Counted from the stretch's first letter, positions 3,570 to 64,000 are shown. The stretch: DNA of 64,000 nucleotides from Diadema antillarum (GCF_040938485.1 NW_027271016.1:1844436-1908435), one strand, 5' to 3'. A program made the numbers and translations. Notes: generated by a model not told the origin, from the letters alone.

Positions 3570-5265
3570 TCTTCAATCAAACTATATATATTTTTTTTAC
3601 ATATTGCACAAAATGTTGCCTTTGAGGACATAAACTTTGATACTTACAACTTAAAATAAATTGTTTACCTAATAATATTATGAAATTGTATGAAAAAACA
3701 AAATCGTTCCTCGGATGTATAACACCATATAACACCTTTTGACATGAAAACAATTGCAAGGAATCAATTTTACTTTTTTCCTCTTTAACCAATGATTCCC
3801 AGAATACTGACACCTTCCGACAATTAAAAAACAGATGTTCTATTGTCTCCGGTTCACTTTTACAAAAGGAACATCTTGAGTCATCTTTTCTCCCTATTCG
3901 AACAAGCCACGAATTAACGGGGATCAAATTATTCAGTATCTTATATTGCGTTATTCTTAATTTTGTCAAACTGGCAGGTAATTTGAAAAGAGATTGAACA
4001 TCTTCAAGTCCAATGTCATACATAACGTCAAAACGATCAAAAACACTAGATTTTCCAGGGTTATTCAAGTGCAAATATATATTGTATAAATGCTTTGTTG
4101 TTACGTTATGTAATTCCAACCATCTACCCTGAACCCAGATTAAAGGAATAATACTCAGGGGTTTAATAAAGGGGTGATAGTTTTGACGAAGAAAAAAAGC
4201 TTCCACTCACTTGGCATCTTCTTGAAGCAATCAAGAAGAGTGAAATACTGAGTAAACTGTAAACCTTTACCCTTACAATCCTTCCAACGCAGAGGTCGGC
4301 CGTACTCATCTAACATATCAGTACCTTCAAAAAACCTTTCTCTACTATGTTTATTAAACATAGACTTCCCGTGAAACAAAATGTATTTATTATTCCAGAT
4401 TATTTGATTGGGTATGCTTAATTCTCTGTTCTGAAGGAGGGACCACGTTTCTAATACCTCTAAAAACCACCGTGAAACATTAATCTTTAACTTTGAAACA
4501 TCAAAGTTGCAGAAGAACAAAAATTCTCCTCCTACAGATGCTAACAAATTCAAACAAATGGATTTCCATCCTTTTGAACATGACCCAAATAACCTCTGCA
4601 CCCATTTTATTTTTTGAGCTTGCATCATTGACTTTAAACAGCACATTTTCAAACCTCCCTCCTCATAATCTTTTACTAAAACATCGCGCCTTATTCTATC
4701 TGGGCCTCTCCAAATAAATTCATAAATAACTTTATTCACGTCATGTATAAAAGAATCTGGCACTGAAACTATACTTGCGATATATAGCAACTGAGATAAA
4801 GCATAAGTCTTAACAATCTGAATTTTCCCGTAGAGGGATAAATCTCTGAATCTCCACCTATGCAGTTGTGATTTAATATTCATCAAAATTCTTTGTAATT
4901 GCGCCTTCCGGTCGTGAAAAGAATACGAAATATCTATTCCTAAAACAGTGAGAACAGATACAAATTCTACATTCCTAAATTGTTGCACGTCCGTCTTAGG
5001 TGCAGTAGTAAACACCGATGGACCAATTCGCATCACTTTTGTCTTATCATAATTAATTGATAAAGACGAACAGATAGCAAAATCATCTAAAATCTTTGCA
5101 AGATTAAGAAAACATTGATCATTTGTTAAAAAAACTGTGATATCATCAGCATACATAGAAAGTTTTATTTCCTCCAGTACACTTAACTTAAGCAAAATGT
5201 TTGCTGCGTACCCAGTGCATTTCTTCTCATGTCTAAAACCCAACCAAGATTTATGAACCAATGTT
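3570..5265 (-). mobile_element. 5'-truncated non-LTR retrotransposon (LINE) ORF2 fragment: RT plus C-terminal Cys-rich domain, frameshifted
   Basis: ORF 4155..5261 (-) has RT motifs including YADDITVF. ORF 3577..4206 (-) in an overlapping frame has the C-terminal C..C...HLFFNC zinc-knuckle-like motif. It sits inside the 4-kb ASIC intron. Confidence 0.8.
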
Positions 5266-9560: not shown

Positions 9561-11439
9561 GCGATCGTCTGCAAGGTTTTTTTTTGATCTTCTTGCAGCC
9601 AATGTGTATTGTTTGATCTTTTTCTGGAATGTACCCTACCGTGTGGACCATCATGTTTGTTATAAGCCACTTAATCAGCGTCTGGTTTGCAAGAGAAATA
9701 TTCTTAGAAGCCAAAGATGGACGAAATCTTCGTTTGATGTGAACAAACAATCAAAATAAAGCATTCCATAAGTTATATCATCAGACGGGATGTTCATTGT
9801 GAGATCATGGACTTGTATAATATGACTGTGTACTCGGTGGTATGGTTTGAGTAGTAATAACGTGCATACATAATTATACAAGTTTGAATAAATGTCCCTG
9901 TAACTAGCTGCAAAAGAATTGATCAGTACTCCTTGTCCCTCGTCACATCACGATTTATTTCCTCTAAACCAGTTGCAATTGGTATTCAGATGTCCCAGAG
10001 AATCTAGTTCGGATCTAGCTATCTCCCCGTAGACATTAAATCGGTGGAATGATGTTGCAGTAATGCATGAATAACGTTTAAATGATAACCTGGAGGTGTG
10101 TGCGTGTGGACGGGGATATGGCACAGACGGTATGCATATTACCTTCACGATGTATGTGAAGCACTTGAATTGACATGCTGAAGAGTATTTTGCATTTATT
10201 CTATTTGTTATTATTAATTTTTATCTCAGAAATCTGATATTATTTCGGTAAATCCTGCTTACTGATGCCAGGAATTCGCCGTGATGTATCTTAAAAGTGT
10301 CCAGTGTGCAAATGCTCTATAAGTTCTGTAAGCACAAGTGAAAAAACAATCAGGAAATCGATCTTTCGTGCTACCTTTTTTTTTTGGGGGGGGGGGGTGT
10401 ACGTTGATTTTAATTCAGCATCCTTCAACCGCGTTCATTTTGTCATAATTGCTGTCGTATAATCATGTGACATTTGATAATAAATTGAATTTTCCAGTTC
10501 ATAAACCACGTAACATTAATTGTAAACAATTTGACACGCATCAATCTAAGCTTCCAGGGTACAGTGTCGATAAAATGAACATCTATTATGTCTGTTATGT
10601 GATGGAATATGTGTCCGAAAGACGTATACACATTGTACTCGTCGACTCCGGATCAAATTATGCAATTGGTAATAATGACTTCATTTTTGCTCATTTCTGC
10701 ATAGGGGGAGAAGATATCTCTTTACAATATGCTATCAAAAGTCACCTAGGCTCGTAGCTTATAAAATCGGCTGAACAGTGATCATTTTCCATACATAAAT
10801 GACTTCTCTACAAAGTTATATATACCTCAACGCCAGCATGCATTCTCGACAGACTTTCAAACACAGGCAAATTTAGCCAACTGATTGTCTAAAAACCCTA
10901 TACCGTTTGTTTGTTTTTTCTGCACGTTTATATACAAGTATTCATTCATATTATGTGCATAATGTCTATAAAAGTATTGTAAATACAATTTGAACCATTC
11001 GAGGAAATAATGTTTGTCATCATCATCATCATCATCATTCTGGTCTTCTATCTGTTCTCCGTTTCTTTTTCACAAACACTGATTACTCGGGGCTTACAGA
11101 CAAACAAGCTAGCTTTCATGTAGGTCCCGTCATACTTCTCTTTGATCAACCCCATTTCGATTTCGATTTTGACCAGTTATCATTACATGTAATTACTGTG
11201 TTATCACCATGTATATTGTTTGTTTTCTGCACATTGTTCACAAGGTAAAAGAACTTGTCTGGTTTCTGTTGTAATGTTCATAAATGAGAAGTATGAAAAT
11301 AAAATGAATTGAAAAATTGAATTGTTTTTGTCCGTTTTGGTCGTTTCCGTCCTTATGTCCTAGCGAAATCCAATCTCTTCTATCTTATCCAATCGACACA
11401 GTTATTCATGGTAACAGCTTAGCATGTACCGTAAAGCTT

Positions 11440-11760
11440 AAATGGAATAGTAATGGTGGAGGTGAGGATTGGAATTTTCACTTTTTGCGAGGTACCAAGA
11501 AATCACTTATGAAAAAGCACAGAGCATACCATTCTAAGAGGGATTCAAAGTTTATAGATGAAAAATCGATTTTCGAATGGCTAAGGCATCCAAAAACAGA
11601 GTAAAACAAAGCGATCGTAATGATAGGTGGGTCCCATCTTATATCAGGAACGCTCTTTCACATTTTTATAAGAGGTTTCTCATTATCTCATCGAAAACAA
11701 AATATTAGAAACCTTAAATTAGGTCTCAACTGAAATTATAACATTCCTTAAAGCATACCA
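11440..11760 (+). repeat. Copy A of an unnamed dispersed repeat family (second copy at 58190..58580)
   Basis: Shared blocks with 58190..58580 in the same orientation: ..ctttttgcgag.taccaagaaa.cactt.., ..catccaaaaaca.agtaaaacaaag.gatcgtaat.., ..ataagaggtttctcattatctca..aaa.tattagaaacct.aaat.aggtctc.ac.aaa. The spurious ORFs 11317..11604 and 58187..58384 share GGxExWxFxFLR for this reason. Confidence 0.7.
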
Positions 11761-12779
11761 AGAGGTTCAAACCATCATAAGACAAATGCAAAGATAAGAT
11801 ATACAAAACAGTATTAAAATCAGAACTGACTCTAAATTACAACAGAATAATGGATCACAATCGACCAATCCAATACACTAAAGATTTCACTTGATATTCA
11901 TCTGGTGATCGACAAGTAATTTAAGCATTCAATTTGTTGATTGGCGAATCCCTTCTAAATCCCCTCGATAAACATGCCTGATAGATTGTAACAGATTATT
12001 TGTTAGGTTTCATTCTATGGCTGAAGAAAATTTCACAGGCGTAAAATGATGCAAGGATCTGACTATCATCACATGATTATGGGATATTCTGACCCATTCC
12101 TTGCCATTCCACATCAGTTTGGTTACAGGGGTATGAATTCAATCGGCTAGTGGTGTCAAACGGCTAAGTTCTAAGTCAAAGTCCTTATGACGATGAGGAA
12201 AAGAAATCTTTATCATCCTAATTACGATCAATACATGAATCATAACATCACAACATTTAAAAAGCGAACCTATTTTGTCATTTTCTAAAGAGTACTCTCG
12301 AACTGACGGCAGTGTGAGCATACTAATAATTAAGATTGCGACGATTCTTATAAAGTTACCCTTAACTGGTCAGTATATATGACTAAACAAAAGTGAGAAA
12401 ATAAATGAAGAAAGGATTTTGTGATTTTTTTTCTTATATTCCATATGGGGTTTATGCTTGAATTGGTATATATACGTATATGGTAATCGTCTAAATCAAT
12501 CCATTAATTAGGGATTTTTAAAAATTTTTTTAGGCCTTACTATTATGACAAGCATATTAATAATAAAATGTAAGGGACAGTGGAATTTGTGCATTGTCGA
12601 CATTTAGGAGCCGATTGACTCAAGATCAAAATTTGTCAATTTTTTTTTCGAAATCTTCTTCTTCTTCTTCTGTTGTATGAAGTCTCCTGAATACTTTTTT
12701 AGATCAATGTACTGCTGTAAAGCTGCTATACATCGTATCTCAAAGCTGCCGTCACACACAAAAAAAAAATCTGAGGCAA

Positions 12780-13930
12780 ATGATTTGCGTGAGTTTTCAG
12801 GTTTGTCCGTGAGGCGACACACTTTTTCCAATTATTGCGTCTTTTCACTCACGCTTACTGAGTCACTTGACTCAGTAGTGAAACAGCTGAGTCAAACAGC
12901 TGAGTCAAATGACTCATTTGCGTGAGTCTTAAGTTTGTCCGTGTGGTGACACACTTTTGCCAAATATTGAGTCTTTTTACTCAGTAAAGTCACTAAATGA
13001 GTCAAGTGACTCAGTATGCTGAGTCAAGTGACTCACTGTGTGATAATCGAAACGCAAAATGATCGAAACGTCTCTTGTTCAGCATACTGATCCAGTCGCT
13101 GACCTACGCATGCAGCACGACCGTAGACGGAGTAGGGAATCAGATCCTATATCTTGTGGTAGCCTATCCCTAAAGCCAGGCTGACACTTGTACGACTTTT
13201 GGCCACGATTTTGTCGTGGCAAGTCGTGACCAACATTTTGAACAATTCAAAATTCTCGTCCCGACATGGCACGCAGGTCACGACGGGTCTACGCACACTT
13301 CATGCCAGTTTACGACTAGTTTGCGCACTGGCACGACTCGAGTCGTGACAATGCGTGCCACAGAATCGTGCAAGTGTCAGCCTGGCTTTACCTATTCCTA
13401 ACCTACTCTTAACTTATTCCTAATACCTAACTACACATCACGAGACAATGCTTCTAATATATACTCATGTCGTAAAATTGTATTCATGTATGTGGTTACT
13501 GTTTTGAAATAGATTTTCTATTCATTTATTCAAGACTTATCTTCTGATAACAGAGCTGAATATTTCATAAATTATATGAAATTATAAATATTTGAAAATT
13601 ATGCAAATTACCATCCGCGACAAAATCAGAAATACATTTCAGAAATTATTTTCTGAATAACAGTTAATTCTTTTGCTTGAAGTTATTACATGATAGATTA
13701 TAATCGTCTCATTGGACTCACATGTCTCATTTATAACAGTTACTGAGTCAAATAGAGATGATGCAATATGAGTCATCGATTTCGTGACTCATTATTGTAA
13801 TTCGGTGTGCGTCATTTTACTCGTTAGATTCGGTAAAACGAGTCTTTTTACTCAGAAGAACTTAAAAGATGTGTCACAACAGCAATGACTCAGTAGATTT
13901 GACCTAAAATGAGTCAACTGACTCGGGTAT
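12780..13930. mobile_element. Composite foldback-like element with TGAGTCA/TGACTCA-rich subrepeats flanking a central MITE
   Basis: There are two ~130-bp direct repeats at 12780..13030 (tttgcgtgagt.ttcaggtttgtccgtg.ggcgacacactttt.ccaa.tattg.gtcttttcactcag..). Related units with gagtctttttactcag recur at 13740..13930. At least 12 copies of TGAGTCA or TGACTCA occur, several as the perfect palindrome GAGTCAcTTGACTC. Confidence 0.6.
13178..13385. mobile_element. MITE-like element with ~15-bp terminal inverted repeats (CCAGGCTGACACTTG ... CAAGTGTCAGCCTGG)
   Basis: TIRs are read directly at both ends. Internal palindromes are present (cacgactcgagtcgtg). It lies between the two TGAGTCA repeat blocks. 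Confidence 0.65.
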
Positions 13931-14212
13931 TTTTTTTTTGTGCGTAACCATCCCACGGTGTCACGGCCTGGGTTGGTCAAGTTGATGGGAGATTTCCCAG
14001 TATAGGTCCAAGCCTGGCGCATTCTGACAGAAAGTAGACCGCAGTTTTTTTCGAAATGATAAAGATGTTGTTATGGTGTTACATGCTGCGACAGCTGCTG
14101 CGTGCACGAAGTTTGGGTGACGTCAAACACGGAAACACACTAGTATACGTGACATAACACAGTGAAATTCGCCCTACAAGAGATGTCTTTTTTTTAAGGT
14201 GATGGTAGAAAT

Positions 14213-14478
14213 TTAGCACTCGAGGACTACGTGCTGTTCTGCAGAAGGCAAGTCGTCTATAAGCCTCCGCGCCAATGCTACCAGCGGTGGCTCCAGGCTT
14301 TCCATCCACTGCTCTCCCTTTGCAAGACTCGCCGAGATCGTCGGCTCGAGATCGTGGAGCTCACCCAGCCTCCGCTGACGACGAATAGCGGTGATCAACT
14401 CGGCGAGGAAGAGCATGACCAACAGGGTAGCAACCAGTATCTTGTGAAGAGACTCATTTACCGCTGTGCTGTTATCAT
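14213..14478 (-). CDS. PARP4: PARP4 terminal coding exon (C-terminal MVP-interaction-like region, TAA stop at 14213..14215)
   Basis: Acceptor aacttttag|AT. The translation (N)DNSTAVNESLHKILVATLLVMLFLAELITAIRRQRRLGELHDLEPTISASLAKGEQWMESLEPPLVALARRLIDDLPSAEQHVVLEC* aligns to the human PARP4 C-terminus GRECLLDLIATMLVLQFIRTRLEKEG...AFEAIKQASEWVRRTEGQYP...LELGNDWDSATKQLLG. It starts in phase 1, joining the previous exon. Confidence 0.75.
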
Positions 14479-14563
14479 CTAAAAGTTAAAAAAAAAAGAT
14501 TATACATCATTTCCAGTAAAACTGACATTCTGTGTCGCGAGTCACAATTATCGCAGAGGCTTT

Positions 14564-14564
<1 letters not shown>

Positions 14565-14609
<45 letters not shown>

Positions 14610-14612
14610 GAA
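14565..14612. repeat. (CAA)n microsatellite
   Basis: caacaacaacaa x16. Confidence 0.9.
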
Positions 14613-14639
14613 GCACATTAGTACTCAAACAAATTATAT

Positions 14640-16160
14640 ATCAAATTGCTGGATCCACTTACTCACATATTCAACCTTTCCATACTGTCTGGAAAATGTC
14701 CCAATTCTTTAAAGATTGCTAAGGTAAACCCAGTGTTTAAGAAAGATGATTCTTGTCAAATTAGTAATTATAGACCAATTTCTATTCTTCCTAGTATTTC
14801 CAAAATTCTTGAAAAAATGATATATGATAGGTTTTATAAATTTTTGCATGATCATGCAGTTTTGAATTTACATCAATATGGTTTCCGAAAGAATTATTCT
14901 ACAGATTTGGCTTTGGTCCAGTTGTATGATCAAATTACAAACGCAATGGCAAATAGAAAACATGTTATAGGAGTTTTTATGGATTTATCTAAGGCGTTTG
15001 ATACGTTACAACATGATATTTTACTTAAAAAGTTACAGTTTTATGGTGTTCGCGGTGTTGCACTCTCGTGGTTTAGGGACTATGTATCATGTAGACAGCA
15101 ATATGTTATACATGATGACATGTCGTCAAATATTTTACCGATAAAATGTGGTGTGCCCCAGGGCTCAATATTAGCCCCCCTTCTCTTTTTGTTATATATC
15201 AATGATATTGTTAATTCGTCGTCTATATTAACATTTATGTTATGCCGATAACACGAATATTTTTTATTCCCACGATAATATAGAAACGTTGGTATCTACA
15301 CTTAATGCAGAGTTACCAAATGTATCAAACTGGTTTAAGAATAATAAATTATCACTTAGTATTGATAAAACAAATTATATTTATTTTAAGCATATGAAAA
15401 CTCACACAGATGATCTTGTAGATAATATTAGGATTGATAATGTATTTCTTGAACGTAAAAGTTCTATTAAGTTTTTAGGCATTTTTATTGATTAAAACCT
15501 AACCTGGAATGAACATATACGTTATGTTACAACCTGTATTTCTAGAAATATAGGTGTTCTTTCAAAGATGAAAAGTTATCTTCCTGAACATACTCTTTTT
15601 ATGCTTTACAATATTCTTTAATCCTACCATATATTATGTATTGCAATCTAGTGTGGAGTACAAGTTCAAAAACTAAACTCAACCCTATTTATTTACTACA
15701 AAAGAAAGCCGTTCGCATCTGTACTGGATCACAATACTTAGCCCACACCAGTTCACTTTTTTATCAGTTAAAAACACTGAATATATTTGATATAAATACA
15801 TTACATTCTTTGCTTTTTATGTTTAAGTATTTGAACAACTTACTTCCAAACATTTTTCACGATTTCTTTAAACTGAATTATACCGTTCATTCATATCCCA
15901 CTCGTAATTCGCAAAATGTTCATTTAGTAAATCCCAGATTATTAATTGCACAAAAATCTATAAGACATGATGGACATGAATACACTCCCAGATTATGTTA
16001 AATCATGTAAAACTTTATATTCTTTCAAGGATAGATTGAAAACTACATTACTGTCAATTTACAATCTATGAATATAGCATTTGAATATTTATTTTGTTTG
16101 GTTTGATCACATTTCTTTTCCTGTAAATTGGATTTAAAACTACAATAAATATACGCAATG
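14640..16160 (+). mobile_element. Degenerate CR1/L2/Jockey-type LINE 3' portion (RT and C-terminal domain, frameshifted, internal stops)
   Basis: ORF 14646..15251 has RT blocks ..NYRPISILP.., GFRKNYST, FMDLSKAFDTLQH and GVPQGSILAPLLFLLYINDI. YADN(T) appears in a shifted frame at ~15241. ORFs 15289..15495 and 15636..16001 continue the C-terminal domain. It lies just downstream of the PARP4 stop. Confidence 0.8.
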
Positions 16161-16654
16161 TTTCTGTGTCTATCATTTCATTTCATTCCCATTATCTTCA
16201 GCATCACCACTATCACTTTCATCTTCATTATCACATTTTTCTTCATCATTACCCTGAAAACATCATCATACATCATCATCATCATATCTCACGTTACTCT
16301 TATTCGTATCTATGCACTAGGAATATAAAAAACATAATGTATTTACAGTGTTTAATATTTTGTAGTATTTCTCCATTCCGCAAACAATATAATGTTTTGT
16401 GTATTATGTAGATAGGTCCCTGGGGTGCCACGTGCTCAAGCTTTTGCTTATAGTGGCAGTCCTTCTTCCGCATAATTTCTCAGATAATTATTTGGAAAAT
16501 TGGTAATACGATTTATAATTTGTTAATGAAATTAATTTACACAACGATTTTCCTTCTTTGAATCATATACTTGTAATCTGCTTACTGATATTCCATGTGA
16601 TATTACTGAAAATAATTTTGATTTATGTATGAAATTGTGTTGGAAGAATAATAA

Positions 16655-16748
16655 ATCAAACAAACAAACAAACAACAACAACAACAACAACAACAATAAT
16701 GTCCGGAAACTTCTCCGGTTACATATGTACCCTATTCAATTTTGTGCT

Positions 16749-16785
<37 letters not shown>
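16655..16785. repeat. Compound microsatellite (CAAA)n(CAA)n ... (GT)n
   Basis: caaacaaacaaacaacaacaacaacaacaacaa, then tgtgtgtgtgtgtgtgtgtgtgtgtg. Confidence 0.9.
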
Positions 16786-16954
16786 TGGCTGGCAATCTCT
16801 GGACTACCTTTAACCATCTGCTTTGTGTGCCCGGGTTGATGAGGTTGAAAAAGCAATAATATTATGATTTTCCCTTTACCATCCAATAATAACGGACAAT
16901 GAATAGGTATAATACATAATCTGATAATAACGGGTAAAAACAGGAGATACTCAC

Positions 16955-17027
16955 TTATCTTTGAGACGAGTGTCTCGATGTTCCCCGAAAAGATCTCGTA
17001 GACTGCACTAAGTTCCCAGTATCCAGC
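16955..17027 (-). CDS. PARP4: PARP4 penultimate coding exon
   Basis: Acceptor tctttcttcag|GCT and donor ATAA|gtgagt. The translation AGYWELSAVYEIFSGNIETLVSKI aligns to the human segment TEDGFWKLTPELGLILNLNTNGLHSFLKQKG. It runs phase 0 to phase 1, consistent with both neighbours. Confidence 0.7.
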
Positions 17028-17107
17028 CTGAAGAAAGACAAAAGTCCATCAATGATATAGTATTGTTACTTTAATCATGGGCTGCACGTTGAGTAAACTA
17101 TTATCTA

Positions 17108-17162
17108 AAAACAAACAAACAAACAAACAAACAAACAAACAAACAAACAAACAAACAAACAA
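17108..17162. repeat. (CAAA)n microsatellite
   Basis: caaacaaacaaa x~13. Confidence 0.9.
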
Positions 17163-18509
17163 CATCCTCCTAAGAAATACATGACAAGGCCGGCTCCTGT
17201 ATAGGTATACAATGGCCCTTGCTTTAAGTGCAGATTGGCTTAGATAAAATCCTTAGCTTTGCACATACACACTGTCCTTAAAGCCTCTGGCAGAGAAAGG
17301 GTTAAATATGACCAAAAATACGCAATAAAGATGCATTTTTCATGATTTTCGTGCGTGGATGGATGCCATGTTTTTCTTTCATCTCTCTGCACCCCCCCCC
17401 CCCCCCCGGGGCAAAAGTATTTTGTGCCCCGTAGGATGAAAGCACGTTGCATTCACATGCAATGTGAAACTCATTGTCAAAGACCTGTTATGTTATTTCT
17501 ACATTATTGATAGTATGGGGAAGAAAGAAGGTACTAGTACGTCAGACAAATTAAACCAACAGAAATTGAATTTACCATACGGTAATTGCTGAAATCATAT
17601 CAATCCGACTTCAAGGGCAATGAGAATGATATTCTTTCCAGTCGAACCTCCCCCTCCCCCTCCCCCTCGATCTCTCTCTCCCGATCATCACATACATAGG
17701 AAACCCTGCATCACTAACCATCAAAAAAACTCGCTAGGCATGGATTTTTAGTTTAAAAACAGATTCCGAAAGAGCAACCCCAAGCTTTAAAATGATGCAT
17801 TACTGAATGCAAATAAACTCTCCTAACCTATCTAAATAATGGAAAGAAAGTACACATCCTGGAATGGAGCTTACTGAGATGGGAGACCTTGAATTTAAGG
17901 GTCTATTCAAGAGTTTTGATAATCTAACCAAGCCGTACTCTGTGTTACAAACCGCACAAAATACAGGGTGTAAAACCCCAAGGCAAGCACAATGAAGGGA
18001 TTATCAAATTAAGCTGAAAATTTTCTCACTCTTTTAACATATTCTACTCAATACCACTGTAAACTTTGAAAGCAGTAGCATTATCTTTTTGAAAGTTCTT
18101 AGAGTTGAAAGTAAAGAGCGTGTACGGGTTTCTATGAACTTACAAGGAGCCTCTGAAACATATCTTATCACATTTCTCAGTGGCGGATCCAGAGGGGTGG
18201 GATCCACCGGGCTTTTTAGTGAAGAAATAAAAAAAAAAATGGGGGGGGGGGGGTTGCGTGCGCCCCCTTTAATTTAAAAAAATATATGGAATTCCTGGAT
18301 CCGCCCCTGCTTCTACTAAAAAAAAAGTGTTCTAGAAAAACACAACTTAAAATTCGTTTCATGATCCCAAACTTCCACTTTATGTAAAATAAGGGTTCTC
18401 TTTAAGAAAATACATAAACTGAAAACTGACTAGGTTCATCCATTTCACCCATTTTGAGTCCTCACGTGGAATCTTGACATGCGACTTTTTGTGATGCATG
18501 CGGTCACAG

Positions 18510-18595: not shown

Positions 18596-18784
18596 TTTTT
18601 GATAATTCTTTATTCGAATTTCGTTCAATTTCATATCATAGAAACAGGAACGTTCACAGAAACAAAACATCATACAAAGACAAACTGCATTTCACACAAA
18701 CATTGTACACAATAACATCAATCTTACCCTAGGGACAAAATACAGTAACACCAACATTGCGCAAACTTATATCAAACTTACATT

Positions 18785-18794
18785 GTAACACACA

Positions 18795-18841
<47 letters not shown>

Positions 18842-18842
18842 T
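18785..18842. repeat. (CA)n microsatellite
   Basis: cacacacccacacacacacacacacacacacacacacacacacacacaca, adjacent to the donor of the large PARP4 exon. Confidence 0.9.
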
Positions 18843-18869
18843 CCATTCGTATCATCCAAAGGTTCTTAC

Positions 18870-20137
18870 ACTGCTCTGCCGGTGCAAAATCCTGGTGACG
18901 TCCTCGGCGCTCAGCTGCTTTCGGCGGACAGTGAAAGGAAACCAAAGCGCGGAGACCTCTCGCTCTGGCTTCCTCTTGGGTTCTTCCTCTCCTCTAGAGT
19001 AAGAATCTTCCAGAAGATATAAATCATCGGCGGCGGCTGCCTTATCATCCAAAGCAGCAAACATCATGTCTTCTGCCACTGTTACTCGTGAGGGCAATCC
19101 ACTCTCAGCTAGTTCTCGCGTAGGCTTCTCATACTCCTCAATGGGTTCCCAGTACTCCTCCTCATCATCCTCACTCTCCTCATAGTATGACATACCTCTT
19201 ATGCCTTGTGTTTCTAGAAGACCCCCAGCATACGGTACATCACCTATTCTATCACGGAGTAATTTTTCTCTTCTGCCTTCGTCATCTCGTTCTGCTACCA
19301 GCGAATGTGGTAGTTGTCTCCGTGTAGAAGAAGTTAATAGAGGCGGCGGCGGAGGCGGCGGCGCCGGCGGTGGCGGCGCTATCATCGCGGCGGGGATGTC
19401 ATCACCCCCCTCCGCTATGAAATATGTTGACTCATCAAATGCGGGGGGAGGGGGCGGTGTTGGTTGCTTGGTCGATCTCTTCATGAGTTGCTCCGGCTGT
19501 GGCGGTGGCAATCCACCTGCTGGTGTTGGCGCTGGTGGCACCGCCCCTGGTAATCGCCTTGGCTCTACATATCCGAGGTAACGGGACCCGTATCCGAGCG
19601 ATGGTACTGGTGGTGGTGGTGGTGGTGGCACCGCTCCTGCGTCTGATGTTCGTTTTCGTAAAGGAAGCCGGCTCGGCAAATCTAGCCCAGATTTGAGGCT
19701 CTTGTCAAAGGCGCTGAATTGCGCGGCGCTGTCAGGAAGGCGGTCGGATTTCTCCTCCAGATCGTGAAGTCTACTCCCTCTTTCACGCAGTTCACTGGCA
19801 TCAGTGGGGATATCTATATCGCGAAAACTCGCGGGAATTTCACGTTGCTTCTTTTTCATTGGCTTCGGCTTCCTTTTCTTTTTCTTTTTTGATTTCCAGA
19901 AAGAAAATGACGGCAGCCCCAGTGCGAATCCCCGTTTTATCACTGCCCGTTTACGTGTGTCCATCTTTAGACTATCGGTTTTCAAATAATCCCTCTCTAT
20001 ATCTATCGACATGTCAATCGCCATGGATCGAAGGCGAGCTATCTCGTCATCTAAGTCAGTAAGTGGTGTGGGAAGTGGTTTGGGCGTTGGTTTGGGCCGT
20101 GGTATCATAGGTGTCACTGGCACTTGAGTAGCCTCGT
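18870..20137 (-). CDS. PARP4: PARP4 large proline-rich exon (422 codons)
   Basis: Acceptor ccttattgcag|AC in phase 1 and donor AGT|gtaaga in phase 0. The continuous ORF (track 18852..20123) reads ..KKKKKRKPKPMKKKQREIP..PPPPPPPVPSLGYGSRY..PPPPAPPPPPPPLL..EESEDDEEEYWEP... It occupies the position of the large low-complexity P/S-rich exon of human PARP4 between the vWA tail and the MVP-binding C-terminus. Confidence 0.65.
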
Positions 20138-20529
20138 CTGCAATAAGGATGATGGTTACATTGGTTAAAAAATATGCTTGTTTCGTCCCACGTATTTCTG
20201 ATTTTCACGTCTGTTAAGACAATCATAGCATAGATTTATCAAATGACTAATGAATCACATTAATATCAAGGTTAATTCTATTGCATTAAAAGTTTTTTTA
20301 TATGTGGTGGCAAAGATGAGACGCCCTAATTGTTCACCCGAGCCACACCACAGTGATGCTTGTTCATAATCAGCCTTTCACATTTACATTATTGTTATCA
20401 ACAGAAAATGTTTTAAACATAGTTAATCACCTCAATTCTCTCCCTCTCTTTGTCTTTTTATAAACGGATAGTAAATAAAGAAGTATATGTATATACATAT
20501 ATGAATTAATATGTATATTACACATTTTA

Positions 20530-60354: not shown

Positions 60355-63300
60355 ATGGGACCAAAGTGACACACCCATTCAAGCAGACACACCCATTCAA
60401 ACACATCTCAAGATGGAATGTGATGCTGAACGTTGTGATTCATCACATGCAGGCAGTGCAGTAGCCAATGCAACTCCTGGTGGAAGCTTGCCAGCGGCAG
60501 TCACTATACAGCATATGGAAGTAGATAGCAATTCTTGTCAGGTTTCCCATGGTTCAGGGACTGACTTGGAGAAGGATGGAACATCATTTGCTTCAGAAGT
60601 TGAGCAGGATAGAAATGTAGTGCCAGAATGCAATGTCCCAGACAAAAGGGAAAGCCAGACAGCAACTGTCGAGGAGCAGGATCAAGTAGGGTCTGGGCAT
60701 TCAAACTCTGCTCTATTGGACACTGTTGAAGAGGGAATGGACACAGGAGGTGATTTTCCCAGTCTGTCTCATGAAAACAGTGAACAAACAGTTTGCGATA
60801 CAGAGAGAAATCTTGCAATTTCAAGTAGTGTTGAGGAAGCCACAGAGCAAATGGAGGTAAGTTCCACTTCCATTGGAGAGCAACCAACATGTTTGCAGCT
60901 GACCACAGCTGATGGATGTTCTGAGATAACAGTGACTGCAGAGGCAAAGCTTGTTAGTGAAGAAACAGCAACTGATGTGGTAGTGAGTGTTTCACCTGGT
61001 AAAGAAACTGGAATGGCGAAAAGTGTGCTCGTAGAAAGCTCATTGTTAAGTTCCTGTTTGAAGGTGAAAGGACATGGAGGTTTGGATACTGCAACTGAGT
61101 CTCTCAAAGGAGCAAGCAGTGTTCCACCAGCAGAACTTGCAGAACAAGAAGTCGAGAACTTGCAGCCAGGTGATGATGGGTCTGCAGAATGCATATCTTC
61201 TGCCAGGAGTGTTGATACTTGTAAGGTAGTGACGGACAAGATCCAAAGCATAAACAACTCAAATAAAGAAAGAGTGCTGCATGACCCAAACTTTGACGGG
61301 GAGTGCAGTTCAGCAGAGAAAGCAAGTGGTGCTACTTCATACACAGCTCAGACAATACATCCTTCCCAGGCCAATGGAGGAAAGAGTGATAAACTTGTAG
61401 AGCACACAGAGTGTCCAAAAGAAAGAGAAGCAAGTGATGAGGAAGTATCATGTGAAACACCCCAGAACCTTGATATGGCGCATGAACCATTGGTTATACC
61501 AACAAACACGAGTGCTGGAGCAAATGTTTTTGCAACCGAGAATGTTGGCCCTTGCTCAGAACTACCAAGCTTGAGATTAGTGAGCTCATTTGAAAAACCA
61601 TGTGTGTCAAACATTTATGAAGCAGGACCATCACAGGCCTTACTTGTGCCAGAGACAGACTTGCAAAATGATCATAAACCACATACATCGATAGAGATGG
61701 AAGCTACAAAACCGCAAGGGGTGGAAAATAGTTGTGAACTTGATACTCAATGCAGGGGAGCTATTGTCCCCAATAATGCAACAAAAGAAAAGTCTTTCAG
61801 TGCAAACCCATTAAGATCAGATACTGCAGTTATTGCTAATGATACCATCCCAGAAAAAGATGAAAGCGTGTCTGAAACTGCACTGGCCTGGAAAGGAGAA
61901 AAACAAGAAACACCAAAGACTGTAGAATCAGGGGAAAATACAGTGAAAACTGATCTTGTCGCCAGTGAAAACATGGACATAGAAGAATGCCCCAACAACA
62001 GAAAAGAATATGCCCCAGAGGTAGCTGCTGGTAATTGTGGGAGAGGATATACTACAAGTGGCAATCAGGTAGATGAAAGTTACTTGGCAAAAATGGAAGT
62101 GACTGAGTCAGAGAAGGATGATTATATCATCGATGTGAGTCAAGAAATGGGGGAGAGATCAATTCAAGAGGTACCAGCGGTTAGCAGTTCTGCACCAGGT
62201 AAACAGAATATGGTGGAGGTTTCAGTCAGTGAAAAGGATATGACTGACACAGCATTAGAGAATATGTGCTGTAACTCTTTTGAAAAAGAAATTGATAAGG
62301 AAGAAACAAAGGACATTGACTCAGAGAATAATAAAGCTGCCACCCCTACTCTAATCCCTGACATTCCACACAGTGCTGACAAGATATGTGAAGAATCAAA
62401 CGAAGACATTCCACTGCAAGAGAAAATGGATAGCCTGCCACTCAGTTCCAAAGTTGCTGGCTCACCAGAAATAATTCCACCTGGTTGTGCATCATCTACT
62501 CCCACCCCACCAGAACTGCAAAGGGACATGCAAGATGAGAGATTGCATGGGGATGAATTTGCCCCAGGAGCATTGATAGAGTCACCAGACAAACCTGAGG
62601 GAGAGTCACAGGAGATGGAACAGAGCCCATCCTGTCCAGAAGCTGATGGTACAGGATTTGCAGAAGGAACATCAAATGGTGCAGGATTTATAGAAGGAAC
62701 ATCAGATGGCACAGAAAAAACTGAGTCAGCGCACACAGGATGGAGTGCAGGAAATGAAAATGAAAGATGTCCAGAAATGCCAACATCCAGAGTTTTAAGC
62801 ACTCCAAACAGCCCACCCTCAGAACTCCAAAGAACCTCTACAGGAGACAAGACAGTGGAGGAAGTTAAAACAATGAATTATGACACATGCACCGATTTGC
62901 CTAGCGTAGCAGCCCCGGCAGGGGACAGAGATGTGGAGTCACGATCACATCCCGATCCTCCTGTCCTAGCTCCAGAGACGATAAGAGGTGGAACATCTTC
63001 TTCCTGTGAAATTTCGGCTGATGAACCAATGGAATGCACTCCTGGCTTGCAGGACAGCACACCAGAAGAGGCTCCTGAAGACTCTCCTGATGAAGTAACA
63101 ATACCACGGCTAGAAGCAGAAACAAAAAAGACTCAGAATGACTCTCCTGAGGATAGTAAAATCGTAAATGATGATACAGAAATGCTGGAACAATGTGCAA
63201 GGGATGGAACAGCAGTAGCAGTACATGAACCTGTATTGAGCCAAAGTGGTGCAGAAAGAATTCAAAGGGATCAAGACAATGCAGCTCAGCATTATGAGAG

Positions 63301-64000
63301 TGTCAGTTCAGTGCCTGAAATGGTCAGTGAGAGTCAAGAGAGGGTCGAGCCAAGCAGTAAAATCATAACTACACAGTTCACCGGAAGCTCCGAGCGCCAG
63401 AGTGAAACATTGCCCAAGTCAAAATTATCTGAAATGATGACAAGAGAGGATATAGAGCAAGAGATGGAGCTATCTCATGAAGAAATCCCTTCACAATTGG
63501 TGGATGTTTCAAAGAAAGATGTGGACAATGATAATAGTCAAAATTCTGAAAATGAAGTCTCAGATTTTGAGGCAGTTAGGCCTGGAGAAAGAATTGCTGA
63601 AAACCTTGGAAACACAACTGTGCTTTCTGCTCAACAAGAGGAGATGCAACTTAGTTCTGAAATATCTGATGAGACAAGAAAGGTGGATGAACAGAGTATT
63701 AGCAATAAAATTGATATTTGTGAAGACAAGTCTCAAACATTAGATGCTGTAACAGAAAATGAGAATGATGAAGACAGAGCTGAGCAAGGAGAAAAGTTTG
63801 ACTCCTCATCCAATCTGTCAAAGCATCCTGTTAGTGATGGTGATGTTGCATTCTTAACTTGTGTAGAAGTTGAACATCCTAGTGATGTTGACGAAGAAAT
63901 GCAATCTTGGACAGAGACTTGTGAAAGCAAACCTCAAGTGTCAGAAACTGCAACAGAAAATGAGAATGATCAAAATAGAGATGAGCAAGTAGAAAAGTTG
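60355..64000 (+). CDS. Very large coding exon (at least 1215 codons, open at the window end) of an unidentified gene encoding an acidic Ser/Glu/Thr/Asp-rich low-complexity protein
   Basis: Strong acceptor tttttttctttctttcatcatcag|ATGGGACC at 60353..60354. A single frame then runs without a stop from 60355 to 64000: ..WDQSDTPIQADTPIQTHLKMECDAERCDSSHAGSAVANATPGGSLPAAVTIQHMEVDSNSCQVSHGSGTDLEKDGTSFASEVEQDRNVVPECNVPDKRESQTATVEEQDQVGSG ... TENENDEDRAEQGEKFDSSSNLSKHPVSDGDVAFLTCVEVEHPSDVDEEMQSWTETCESKPQVSETATENENDQNRDEQVEKL. The last ~250 nt show the start of a tandem protein repeat. The supplied ORF track lists only antisense ORFs here (60504..63930, minus), as expected for a purine-rich sense strand, and lacks this frame because it has no in-window stop. 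Confidence 0.75.

What the first reader, a model, noticed from the sequence alone, without database searches (positions are those of the whole stretch)
60355..64000. Giant purine-rich exon of an unidentified acidic low-complexity protein, absent from the ORF track
A 3.6-kb stop-free frame begins exactly at a textbook acceptor (polypyrimidine tract plus cag) and runs off the window. Composition is strongly E/D/S/T-rich with few hydrophobic residues. A tandem repeat of TENEND(E/Q)(D/N)R(A/D)EQ(G/V)EK(F/L) begins at the very end. Only antisense ORFs are listed by the six-frame track, so this frame is easy to miss. I could recognise no characterised domain by eye. Its upstream exons must lie in 47.3-60.3 kb (a repeat-rich, CpG-block-containing region) or beyond.
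Basis: seen in the sequence. Interest (0 to 1): 0.7.

Follow-up and report, generated by a model that had tools for sequence, protein, structure and literature searches.

The report
Giant exon of urchin zinc-finger gene
The long stop-free stretch is a real protein-coding exon, the first 3.6 kb of a roughly 7.7-kb exon of a sea-urchin (Diadema antillarum) gene that RefSeq already lists as an "uncharacterized protein"; the protein has a huge acidic, probably unstructured region and seven DNA-binding-type zinc fingers at its end, so the finding is genuine but fairly ordinary.

Summary
The stop-free frame starts at 60356, not 60355. Base 60355 is the third base of a codon split by the intron.

- **Coding:** 1215 codons have no stop (chance about 4e-35). 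Period-3 signal is 54 against about 1 in the flanks.
- **Identity:** the translation is 100% identical (1215/1215) to residues 12-1226 of XP_071487844.1, "uncharacterized protein [Diadema antillarum]", 2610 aa.
- **Orthologue:** the D. setosum gene (XP_072174271.1) shows the full architecture: a giant exon of about 7.7 kb, one intron, a short last exon, about 2300 acidic residues and then 7 C2H2 zinc fingers.
- **Selection:** dN/dS is 0.55 (0.40-0.72). All four exon indels are multiples of 3.
- **Disorder:** AlphaFold pLDDT is 32. Pfam and PDB give no match.
- **Spread:** only the Diadema orthologue's cluster matches among 1.84 billion representative proteins.
- **Repeat:** the TENEND motif heads a 67-69-aa unit, with 3 copies in D. 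antillarum and 4 in D. setosum.
- **Start codon:** the conserved start is probably ATG 60413, because D. setosum has an in-frame TAA upstream of it.

Most likely this is a nuclear zinc-finger DNA-binding protein with a fast-evolving acidic disordered arm. That function is inferred. Interest is low.

The parts
56088..56097 (.). GCGCATGCGC palindrome about 45 nt upstream of the exon-1 ATG. It may be a core-promoter element of the NRF1/P3A2-site type.
   Evidence: The sequence is read. It sits in a block (GCTGAGCTACCTGCCTAYAGCGCATGCGCATGTACT) that is nearly identical in D. setosum, inside a region that is 85% identical overall. The assignment to NRF1/P3A2 rests on my own knowledge of that consensus and was not tested.
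56140..56171 (+). Coding part of exon 1 as annotated: ATG AAA ATA CGG AGG AAA TTC AGA CAT ATG CC gives MKIRRKFRHM plus two bases of a Pro codon. The transcription start site and the 5' end of the exon are unknown.
   Evidence: Splicing 56140-56171 to 60355 reproduces the N-terminus of XP_071487844.1. The 32 nt plus the donor are 100% identical in D. setosum. The ATG context gtgtgtATGaa is weak.
56172..60354 (+). Intron 1 (4183 nt). It starts with donor GTAAGT (56172-56177) and ends with a pyrimidine tract plus cag (about 60322-60354). It contains a foldback palindrome (56933-57291) and dispersed repeats.
   Evidence: The alignable part 59492-60354 diverges from D. setosum by K=0.126 and has indels of 1, 15, 10, 3, 2, 7, 2, 1 and 4 nt, which are not constrained to multiples of three.
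60355..64000 (+). First 3646 nt of giant exon 2, which runs off the window. By comparison with D. setosum the whole exon is about 7.7 kb. It encodes the acidic Glu/Ser/Thr/Asp-rich, disorder-like region.
   Evidence: Open frame from 60356. 100% identical to XP_071487844.1 aa 12-1226. dN/dS 0.55, with indels of 54, 3, 30 and 3 nt only. AlphaFold pLDDT 31.8. D. setosum exon extent is L001 about 9655-17356.
60413..60415 (+). Conserved in-frame ATG in a strong context (ctcaagATGga; MECDAERC...). It is probably the ancestral or main start codon.
   Evidence: D. setosum has an in-frame TAA 12 nt upstream of the equivalent ATG. The same exon1-exon2 splice there gives only a 25-codon upstream ORF (MKIRRKFRHMPWNRSDTPIQVDTPI*). 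The D. setosum frame is open from this ATG onward.
62646..62714 (+). Small in-frame 30-nt (10-aa) tandem repeat, 2.3 copies (GTGFAEGTSN / GAGFIEGTSD ...). One copy is absent in D. setosum.
   Evidence: Tandem Repeats Finder. A 10-codon gap in D. setosum falls exactly here.
63668..64000 (+). Start of the 67-69-aa tandem repeat array: partial unit 63668-63751, full unit 1 at 63752-63952, and unit 2 from 63953, cut by the window end.
   Evidence: TENEN occurs at aa 1133 and 1200 of the frame. The units align across both species, with 3 units in D. antillarum and 4 in D. setosum. Window 63713-64000 matches three staggered places in L001 at 71-72% identity.
59500..64000 (.). CpG-depleted domain (CpG observed/expected 0.06-0.29, TpG/CpA excess 1.3-1.75). 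The decline starts at about 58 kb. The rest of the window is at about 0.9.
   Evidence: The depletion covers the last 0.85 kb of the intron as well as the exon. The D. setosum orthologous locus is depleted from about 8 to 24 kb of L001. Reading this as germline gene-body methylation is an inference from established knowledge of invertebrate mosaic methylation.

Best explanation
The region is the 5' part of exon 2 of a Diadema antillarum protein-coding gene already present in RefSeq (XP_071487844.1; allelic copy XP_071477890.1; 'uncharacterized protein', 2610 aa).

Shown here:
- A short exon 1 (56140-56171) is spliced across a 4.2-kb intron to the acceptor at 60354/60355.
- The giant exon is about 7.7 kb in the sister species and encodes nearly the whole protein.
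- The protein has about 2300 residues of acidic (pI 4.3), Glu/Ser/Thr/Asp-rich sequence with no detectable fold.
- After that come a basic, Cys-rich segment and seven C2H2 zinc fingers. The last four are joined by canonical TGEKP-type linkers.

Inferred:
- The protein is nuclear and binds DNA through the C-terminal fingers.
- The giant acidic disordered arm acts as a flexible interaction or activation platform: an acid-blob type of transactivation, binding of histones or other basic proteins, possibly tuned by phosphorylation of its many Ser/Thr-Asp/Glu sites.
- Because such an arm works through composition and short motifs rather than a fold, it tolerates rapid substitution, in-frame indels and repeat copy-number change, while selection keeps the frame open.
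- Translation most likely starts at the conserved, strong-context ATG at 60413. The exon-1 ATG then acts as an upstream ORF (as in D. setosum) or, in D. antillarum, gives an optional 30-residue N-terminal extension.
- The gene body appears germline-methylated, which in invertebrates goes with broad, germline-inclusive expression.
For: Identity:
- 1215/1215 identity to P0122 aa 12-1226.
- The N-terminus is reproduced by the 56171|60355 splice.

Coding:
- No stop in 1215 codons (p about 4e-35) and period-3 signal 53.6.
- dN/dS 0.55, bootstrap 0.40-0.72, with dS 0.104 against intron K 0.126.
- Exon indels are all multiples of 3, unlike the intron indels.
- The frame is intact over 2576 codons in D. 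setosum and in both D. antillarum haplotypes, which differ at 4 of 2610 residues.

Architecture:
- Pfam finds C2H2 fingers in the orthologue (zf-C2H2_4 6e-16, zf-C2H2 7e-14, zf-H2C2_2 3e-13).
- Seven CX2CX12HX3-5H motifs.
- The closest solved structures are the DNA-bound finger arrays of ZNF568, PRDM9 and CTCF.
- The C-terminal 270 aa have pI 9.3, against 4.3 for the rest.

Disorder:
- No Pfam family and no PDB relative.
- AlphaFold mean pLDDT 31.8 with no helices.
- GRAVY -0.80.

Start codon:
- In-frame TAA in D. setosum and the Kozak contexts.

Methylation proxy:
-.
Against: - No transcript data could be examined. The splice junction rests on a computational RefSeq (Gnomon) model plus perfect conservation of exon 1 and its donor, and a retained polypyrimidine tract and AG (cag to tag) at the acceptor.
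- The zinc fingers, the basis of the functional inference, lie outside the window and were seen only in the database protein.
- Nuclear localisation, DNA binding and any activation or chromatin role are untested.
- dN/dS of 0.55 is weak constraint, so much of the arm may be close to neutral spacer.
- AlphaFold was run without an alignment, which gives poor models in general.
- RefSeq annotates the exon-1 ATG as the start in D. antillarum, so 60355-60412 may really be coding in this species.
Confidence: 0.85

Rival explanations
1. The exon encodes a secreted acidic matrix or mucin-like protein, for example a biomineralisation protein of the urchin skeleton or spines, or a Ser/Thr-rich glycoprotein, rather than a nuclear factor.
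For: The composition (21% Asp+Glu, 20% Ser+Thr, pI 4.2) resembles acidic skeletal-matrix proteins and mucin domains. The organism is a long-spined urchin. The sequence contains tandem repeats.
Against: Neither candidate N-terminus (MKIRRKFRHMPWDQSD... or MECDAERCDSSHAGS...) has a hydrophobic signal-peptide core (judged by eye). The protein ends in seven C2H2 fingers with TGEKP linkers and basic KRK clusters, which is an intracellular, nucleic-acid-binding architecture. Pro is only 6% and most of the sequence is non-repetitive, unlike mucins.
Confidence: 0.04
2. The open frame is not translated. It would be a compositional accident of a purine-rich exon of a non-coding RNA, or a decaying pseudogene.
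For: Purine-rich sequence is poor in TAA/TAG/TGA in some frames. The antisense frames here also carry ORFs of 150-230 aa. dN/dS is fairly high (0.55). No homologue exists outside Diadema for the first 1200 aa.
Against: Local composition predicts a stop every 16 codons or so (p=0.063), and the other five frames have 27-132 stops. Period-3 power is 50 times background. dN/dS is significantly below 1. All indels against D. setosum are in-frame, whereas the adjacent intron has 1-, 2-, 4-, 7- and 10-nt indels. The frame stays open for more than 2500 codons in two species and two haplotypes, and runs into well conserved zinc fingers (91-97% identity).
Confidence: 0.02
3. The window part is coding from the exon-1 ATG, exactly as RefSeq annotates. 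The 30 N-terminal residues (MKIRRKFRHMPWDQSDTPIQADTPIQTHLK) are then a genuine part of the D. antillarum protein rather than 5'UTR or an upstream ORF.
For: In D. antillarum the frame is open from 56140 across the splice into the main ORF, and RefSeq chose this start for both haplotypes. Exon 1 is 100% conserved in D. setosum.
Against: In D. setosum the same splice hits TAA after 25 codons, so the extension is not conserved as protein. The exon-1 ATG has a weak context (T at -3, A at +4), while ATG 60413 has A at -3 and G at +4. Divergence of 60355-60412 (K=0.11) is at the intron level.
Confidence: 0.3

Closest known systems
XP_071487844.1 / XP_071477890.1, 'uncharacterized protein' of Diadema antillarum (RefSeq), and the orthologue XP_072174271.1 of Diadema setosum
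   Same: It is the same gene. The window translation is identical to residues 12-1226 of XP_071487844.1. The D. setosum orthologue is 85% identical over 2538 aligned residues, and the flanking DNA is colinear.
   Different: Nothing differs for D. antillarum. The D. setosum RefSeq model starts at an internal ATG inside a species-specific 54-nt insertion, although its frame is open 95 codons further upstream to the conserved MECDAERC start. D. setosum also has 4 rather than 3 of the 67-69-aa units.
Very large C2H2 zinc-finger proteins encoded mostly by one giant exon, such as vertebrate ZNF407, ZNF292 and ZNF462. The gene structures of these are from my own knowledge.
   Same: They are over 2000 aa, most of the protein comes from one multi-kilobase exon, long low-complexity stretches are combined with C2H2 fingers, and they are presumed nuclear DNA-binding proteins. 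A fish ZNF407 was one of only four hits to the full-length D. setosum orthologue used as query (E=1.9e-15).
   Different: The similarity is confined to the fingers (28% identity over 8% of the query), so orthology is not shown. Those proteins spread many fingers along the chain. Here all seven sit in the last 230 residues, behind one uninterrupted acidic arm of about 2300 aa.
Acidic transcriptional activation domains and acidic histone-binding disordered regions (VP16/Gcn4-type 'acid blobs', nucleoplasmin/nucleolin acidic tracts, prothymosin-alpha). This comparison is from my own knowledge.
   Same: Strong net negative charge, few hydrophobic residues, no fold, and function thought to depend on composition and short motifs. 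That would explain fast sequence turnover with a preserved frame.
   Different: Those regions are tens to a few hundred residues long. This one is about 2300. No activation or histone-binding assay exists, and no shared sequence motif was found (Pfam 0 hits; PDB 0 hits).
Homologue P0002 (567-aa ORF on a 2.2-kb Logan contig from run SRR6173504; organism unknown)
   Same: Its C-terminal module is 56% identical: KTCRxGNCSCKxCxEAKR, KRKxMPxNxFKKLxISFTPT, the 3+4 finger layout, and the last residues (H/S)I(A/G)GISFDD.
   Different: The three-finger block is duplicated, and no long acidic arm is visible. However, the contig is short and has a stop 8 codons from its 5' end next to an internal repeat, so it may be truncated or misassembled. 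The source organism could not be identified.

Membership tests
Spliceosomal internal coding exon of an annotated eukaryotic gene | 3' splice site: a polypyrimidine tract followed by AG immediately upstream of the exon | tested here: met
   25 of 30 pyrimidines, then cag at 60352-60354. The AG is kept in D. setosum (tag). The junction is the one used by RefSeq XP_071487844.1.
Spliceosomal internal coding exon of an annotated eukaryotic gene | An upstream exon with a GT donor in a compatible phase | tested here: met
   56140-56171 ends with CC, followed by GTAAGT. CC|A restores a Pro codon and the annotated N-terminus.
Spliceosomal internal coding exon of an annotated eukaryotic gene | Evidence of selection on the reading frame (dN/dS below 1, in-frame indels) | tested here: met
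   dN/dS 0.55 (0.40-0.72). Exon indels are 54, 3, 30 and 3 nt, against intron indels of 1, 15, 10, 3, 2, 7, 2, 1 and 4 nt.
Spliceosomal internal coding exon of an annotated eukaryotic gene | Transcript evidence for the junction and a 3' donor at the exon end | not testable with these tools
   No RNA-seq access. The exon end lies beyond the window. In D. setosum the exon ends near L001 17356 and is followed by a 1.3-kb intron.
C2H2 (Krueppel-type) zinc-finger proteins, Pfam PF00096/PF13894/PF13465 | CX2-4CX12HX3-5H motifs recognised by the Pfam models above their cut-offs | tested here: met
   Met for the complete protein, not for the window. In the D. setosum orthologue P0001, zf-C2H2_4 scores 58 bits (cut-off 27), zf-C2H2 51.9 (25.2) and zf-H2C2_2 49.7 (40). 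Seven motifs lie at aa 2383-2602 of P0122. The window part itself has no Pfam hit.
C2H2 (Krueppel-type) zinc-finger proteins, Pfam PF00096/PF13894/PF13465 | Tandem fingers joined by TGEKP-like linkers, the hallmark of DNA-binding arrays | tested here: met
   HTGELPYPC, HTGEKPFVC and HTGYKPYIC link fingers 4-7. The best PDB relatives are the DNA-bound arrays of ZNF568, PRDM9 and CTCF (E 3e-78 to 1e-39).
C2H2 (Krueppel-type) zinc-finger proteins, Pfam PF00096/PF13894/PF13465 | Sequence-specific DNA binding and nuclear localisation | not testable with these tools
   This needs experiments. Only basic KRK/RKPRKR clusters were seen by eye.
Intrinsically disordered acidic region | Low hydrophobicity, high net charge, and no predicted secondary or tertiary structure | tested here: met
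   GRAVY -0.80, 252 D+E against 90 K+R, pI 4.2. AlphaFold mean pLDDT 31.8, with 1195 of 1196 residues below 50 and no helices (single-sequence mode, so supportive rather than conclusive). No Pfam or PDB relatives.
Secreted acidic biomineralisation or mucin-type proteins | N-terminal signal peptide | tested here: not met
   Neither MKIRRKFRHMPWDQSDTPIQ... nor MECDAERCDSSHAGSAVANATPGG... has a hydrophobic core. This was judged by inspection; no signal-peptide predictor was available.
Germline gene-body methylation (invertebrate mosaic methylation) | CpG depletion with TpG/CpA excess, confined to the transcribed body and sparing the 5' end | tested here: met
   CpG observed/expected is 0.06-0.29 with TpG/CpA at 1.3-1.75 from 59.5 kb on. 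Around exon 1 and in the rest of the window it is about 0.9-1.2. The same pattern is seen in D. setosum. This is a sequence proxy only; methylation itself was not measured.

The most novel reading that the evidence does not exclude
The acidic arm of about 2300 residues may be a young innovation of the Diadema or diadematoid lineage, grown by repeat expansion and in-frame insertion onto an older, conserved seven-finger DNA-binding module. Three observations do not exclude this:
- The only relative outside the genus (P0002) shows the finger module without a comparable arm.
- The first 1200 residues match only the Diadema orthologue's cluster (representative P0001) among 1.84 billion representative proteins.
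- The two Diadema species already differ by 18-, 10-, 27- and 69-codon indels.

In addition, a single TAA/CAA difference switches the exon-1 reading frame between a regulatory upstream ORF (D. setosum) and an N-terminal extension of the protein (D. antillarum).
Probability: 0.2. Interest if true: 0.4.

Novelty: already known. Interest (0 to 1): 0.2.

Why it matters
The practical value is for the scan. The case shows that a six-frame ORF track which drops ORFs running off the window can hide the largest coding feature in it. It also shows that period-3 signal, a splice acceptor and CpG depletion together flag a real exon.

Biologically, the gene is catalogued but unstudied. It is a clean example of a multi-kilobase single exon encoding an acidic disordered arm that evolves quickly (dN/dS about 0.55, with in-frame indels and a change in repeat copy number) while remaining attached to a conserved zinc-finger array. 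If the arm proved to be lineage-specific, the gene would be a useful case for how long disordered regions grow.

Two small annotation points also follow. The D. setosum RefSeq model is probably truncated at the N-terminus. The annotated start codon in D. antillarum may really belong to an upstream ORF.

Tried and rejected
- **Frame from 60355:** The correct frame is 60356.
- **Homology with the window exon:** Pfam, PDB sequences and the search for homologous proteins all gave nothing. The last result was misleading. The tool also failed to list the 100%-identical parent protein of my query, and every hit there was under 690 aa. It therefore seems to disfavour much longer subjects; this is my inference, not documented behaviour. 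The exhaustive search of protein representatives found the D. setosum orthologue, and a full-length query then found the D. antillarum protein.
- **Upstream exon search:** a codon-usage scan trained on the giant exon found no upstream coding exon. The real exon 1 has only 32 coding nt, too short for that method.
- **Internal repeats:** self-BLAST found only short k-mer repeats, so most of the window part is non-repetitive.
- **The look-up of encoding contigs for P0122:** no record, so the rest of the D. antillarum gene could not be read as DNA. dN/dS is therefore limited to the window part.
- **Source of SRR6173504:** no paper mentions the run.
- **Bacterial promoter/terminator scan near exon 1:** irrelevant for a eukaryote and uninformative.
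- **Readings considered and rejected:** a secreted matrix or mucin protein, and a non-coding or pseudogene reading (see rival explanations).
- **Fold search:** not run, because a model with pLDDT 32 gives meaningless matches.
Full report

The sequence 60200-64000 was read and translated in the three forward frames.
- The frame that starts at 60356 has none: 1215 sense codons to the end of the window.
- The nearest upstream in-frame stop is TAG at 60311-60313.
- The acceptor is as described. A 30-nt stretch with 25 pyrimidines is followed by cag at 60352-60354. Base 60355 is the last base of a codon split by the intron.

Chance does not explain the open frame.
- Local base composition predicts a stop in 6.3% of codons, giving about 4e-35 for 1215 stop-free codons.
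- The five other frames of the same stretch carry 27-132 stops.
- Period-3 spectral power is 53.6 times the mean, against 0.3-1.7 in five non-coding stretches of equal length.
- First codon positions are 40% G.

- 59.9% purine on the sense strand.
- Glu 13.3, Ser 12.0, Thr 7.8 and Asp 7.5%.
- pI 4.2, and 252 acidic against 90 basic residues.

The ORF is missing from the six-frame list only because that list omits ORFs running off the window. Only antisense ORFs appear there.

**2. What organism and what gene?**

The window has 39% G+C and CpG observed/expected of about 0.9. It carries LINE reverse-transcriptase fragments and many microsatellites. That pattern suggested an invertebrate.

Identification took several searches.
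- Pfam, PDB and the word-indexed protein search found nothing for the exon.
- The exhaustive HMMER search of 1.84 billion cluster representatives found exactly one protein. P0001 is 2543 aa and aligns over query residues 111-1200. It is XP_072174271.1, 'uncharacterized protein [Diadema setosum]'.
- Using that protein as a full-length query recovered P0122, which is XP_071487844.1, 'uncharacterized protein [Diadema antillarum]', 2610 aa.
- The window translation is identical to residues 12-1226 of P0122 at 1215 of 1215 positions.

The window is therefore D. antillarum DNA, and the exon is already part of a RefSeq gene model.

A second RefSeq protein, XP_071477890.1, sits on another contig and differs at 4 of 2610 residues. 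The D. antillarum assembly is 1.73 Gb, against 0.886 Gb for D. setosum (abstracts listed). The two proteins are therefore most simply two haplotypes.

**3. Gene structure**

The first 11 residues of the RefSeq protein are MKIRRKFRHMP.
- The window contains ATGAAAATACGGAGGAAATTCAGACATATGCC at 56140-56171, followed by GTAAGT.
- Joining 56171 to 60355 gives ...CAT ATG CC|A TGG GAC..., which is exactly the annotated N-terminus.
- Exon 1 and its donor are 100% identical in D. setosum, within a region that is 85% identical overall.
- A GCGCATGCGC palindrome about 45 nt upstream is also conserved.

The D. setosum locus L001 is colinear with window 53952-64000 and shows the rest of the gene.
- The giant exon runs from about L001 9655 to 17356, roughly 7.7 kb.
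- A 1.3-kb intron follows, then a last coding exon at 18699-18983.
- The window therefore holds a little under half of the exon.

**4. The start codon**

In D. setosum the stretch between the acceptor and the first ATG of the exon contains an in-frame TAA, where D. antillarum has CAA.
- The same exon 1-exon 2 splice in D. setosum yields only MKIRRKFRHMPWNRSDTPIQVDTPI*.
- That stop lies 12 nt upstream of ATG GAA TGC..., which encodes MECDAERC.
- This ATG is at window 60413. It is conserved and has a strong context (A at -3, G at +4).
- The exon-1 ATG has a weak context.
- Divergence of 60355-60412 is at the intron level.

I therefore think ATG 60413 is the ancestral and probably the main start. 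The exon-1 ATG would be an upstream ORF that happens to be fused in frame in D. antillarum. The RefSeq start cannot be excluded for this species, and I give it about 0.3.

The D. setosum RefSeq model itself starts at an ATG inside a species-specific 54-nt insertion. Its frame is open for 95 more codons, back to the conserved ATG. That model looks truncated at the N-terminus.

**5. Is the exon under selection?**

1185 codons were aligned between the window and D. setosum.
- Protein identity is 88%.
- Nei-Gojobori dS is 0.104 and dN is 0.057, so dN/dS is 0.55 with a bootstrap 95% interval of 0.40-0.72.
- The adjacent intron diverges by K=0.126.
- The four indels in the exon are 54, 3, 30 and 3 nt.
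- The nine indels in 860 nt of intron are 1, 15, 10, 3, 2, 7, 2, 1 and 4 nt.

Constraint on the amino-acid sequence is weak but real, and constraint on the reading frame is strong. Over the full proteins, identity is 85% (2168 of 2538). It ranges from 73-94% per 100-column block in the arm to 83-97% across the C-terminal zinc-finger blocks.

**6. What the protein looks like**

- Pfam finds only C2H2 zinc-finger families in the orthologue, all at the C-terminus.
- Pattern matching finds seven fingers in a 3+4 layout at residues 2383-2602 of the D. antillarum protein. The last four are joined by HTGE(K/L)P-type linkers.
- The closest solved structures are the DNA-bound finger arrays of ZNF568, PRDM9 and CTCF.
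- The last 270 residues have pI 9.3 and contain KRK-type clusters. The first 2340 residues have pI 4.3, with 20% Asp+Glu and 20% Ser+Thr.
- AlphaFold2 on the window part (1196 aa, no alignment) gives mean pLDDT 31.8, no residue above 70 and no helix. Single-sequence mode is weak evidence on its own. It agrees with the composition and with the absence of any family or structure match.

The TENEND motif heads a 67-69-aa unit.
- D. antillarum has three units and D. setosum has four. Column identity across the units averages 62%.
- The window holds a partial unit (63668-63751), one full unit (63752-63952) and the first 16 residues of the next.
- A smaller 10-aa repeat at 62646-62714 also varies in copy number between the species.

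**7. How it most likely works**

Shown: this is a spliced, selected coding exon that encodes a very long acidic segment with no detectable fold, fused to a canonical tandem C2H2 array.

Inferred:
- The protein is nuclear.
- The fingers tether it to DNA.
- The acidic arm serves as a flexible platform for activation or for binding basic partners such as histones. Such a function depends on charge and short motifs, which would explain fast substitution and free in-frame length change.
- The many Ser/Thr residues set among acidic residues would suit acidophilic kinases. This last point is speculative.

**8. Other readings**

- A secreted skeletal-matrix or mucin-like protein would fit the composition and the animal. 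It does not fit the lack of a signal peptide or the zinc-finger C-terminus.
- A non-coding or pseudogene reading is excluded by sections 1 and 5.

**9. Distribution**

- The first 1200 residues match only the Diadema orthologue's cluster among 1.84 billion representatives.
- The C-terminal module has one relative outside the genus, P0002. It is 56% identical and lies on a 2.2-kb Logan contig of unknown origin.
- P0002 has the same Cys-rich KTCRxGNCSCK segment, the same finger layout and the same last residues, (H/S)I(A/G)GISFDD. No long acidic arm is visible, but the contig may be incomplete.
- It therefore remains open whether the arm is old and fast-evolving or a recent expansion.

**10. CpG pattern**

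CpG observed/expected is about 0.9 over the window and 0.9-1.2 around exon 1.
- It falls from about 58 kb and is 0.06-0.29 from 59.5 kb to the window end. That stretch includes the last 0.85 kb of the intron.
- TpG/CpA excess there is 1.3-1.75.
- The D. setosum locus shows the same domain over its gene body.

This is the sequence footprint expected of germline gene-body methylation in an invertebrate with mosaic methylation. That reading rests on established knowledge, and methylation was not measured here. It argues independently that the region is a transcribed gene body.

**11. Verdict**

The feature is already catalogued in RefSeq as an uncharacterised protein, and it belongs to a familiar class: a large C2H2 zinc-finger protein with a giant exon and a long disordered region. 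Interest is low, at 0.2.

The residual points of interest are:
- the extreme length and rapid turnover of the acidic arm;
- its apparent restriction to Diadema at the sequence level;
- the switch between an upstream ORF and an N-terminal extension caused by one codon.

Noticed in passing
window 18852-20204, minus strand: A 450-codon stop-free frame (423-aa ORF from the first start) that is rich in proline runs (PPPPPPP) and acidic or basic patches. Period-3 signal is 8.6 and G+C is 52%. It ends in a stop codon and is preceded on its strand by ...ttaacag. It is probably the terminal coding exon of a neighbouring gene on the opposite strand. Pfam gives only a sub-threshold Synaptobrevin hit (E=0.009).
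   Followed up: partly
window 60355-60412 and L001 9658-9715: A single CAA (D. antillarum) versus TAA (D. setosum) difference decides how the exon-1 ATG reads. It is either fused in frame to the main ORF or opens a 25-codon upstream ORF that ends 12 nt before the conserved start.
   Followed up: yes
L001 9716-10000 (D. setosum, OZ188199.1): The RefSeq model XP_072174271.1 starts at an ATG inside a 54-nt species-specific in-frame insertion. The frame is open 95 codons further upstream, back to the conserved MECDAERC start. That model looks truncated at the N-terminus.
   Followed up: yes
window 56088-56097: GCGCATGCGC palindrome about 45 nt upstream of the exon-1 ATG, inside a block nearly identical in D. 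setosum. From memory it resembles an NRF1/P3A2-type promoter site. This was not tested.
   Followed up: partly
window 51890-53825: A 274-bp satellite-like tandem repeat, 7 copies, 91% matches, lying 2-4 kb upstream of exon 1.
   Followed up: no
window 56933-57291 (intron 1); also 55439-55529 and 58295-58491: Nested inverted repeats form a foldback palindrome of about 360 nt (arms 90-91% complementary), with two smaller hairpin-like inverted repeats nearby. They look like MITE or foldback transposon remnants.
   Followed up: partly
window 58201-58592 and 11442-11752; L001 18102-18490: A dispersed repeat family. The same element of about 390 nt occurs in intron 1 of the window, at 11.4 kb in the window, and in the last intron of the D. 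setosum gene (73-77% identity over the main matches).
   Followed up: no
window 14646-15251 (+), 15636-16001 (+), 3577-5261 (-): Fragments of LINE-type retrotransposons: RVT_1 at E=8e-26, and on the minus strand RVT_1 (weak) plus zf-RVT at E=9e-11.
   Followed up: partly
window 59036-59075 and 55013-55276: A G-run of about 30 nt in intron 1 and a (TATC)n microsatellite of 68 copies upstream of exon 1. The microsatellite produces the spurious 'SIYLSIYL' ORFs at 54949-55340.
   Followed up: no
whole window versus 58000-64000: There is a sharp boundary between a CpG-replete landscape (observed/expected about 0.9) and a CpG-depleted gene body (about 0.2). The boundary lies about 2-3 kb downstream of exon 1. 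The same pattern occurs in D. setosum (L001 8-24 kb).
   Followed up: partly
tool behaviour: the search for homologous proteins missed the identical or orthologous 2543-2610-aa proteins when queried with 1215-aa and 393-aa pieces; all hits were under 690 aa. It found them with a full-length query. A 'no homologue' result from that tool for a fragment of a very long protein is therefore unreliable.
   Followed up: partly
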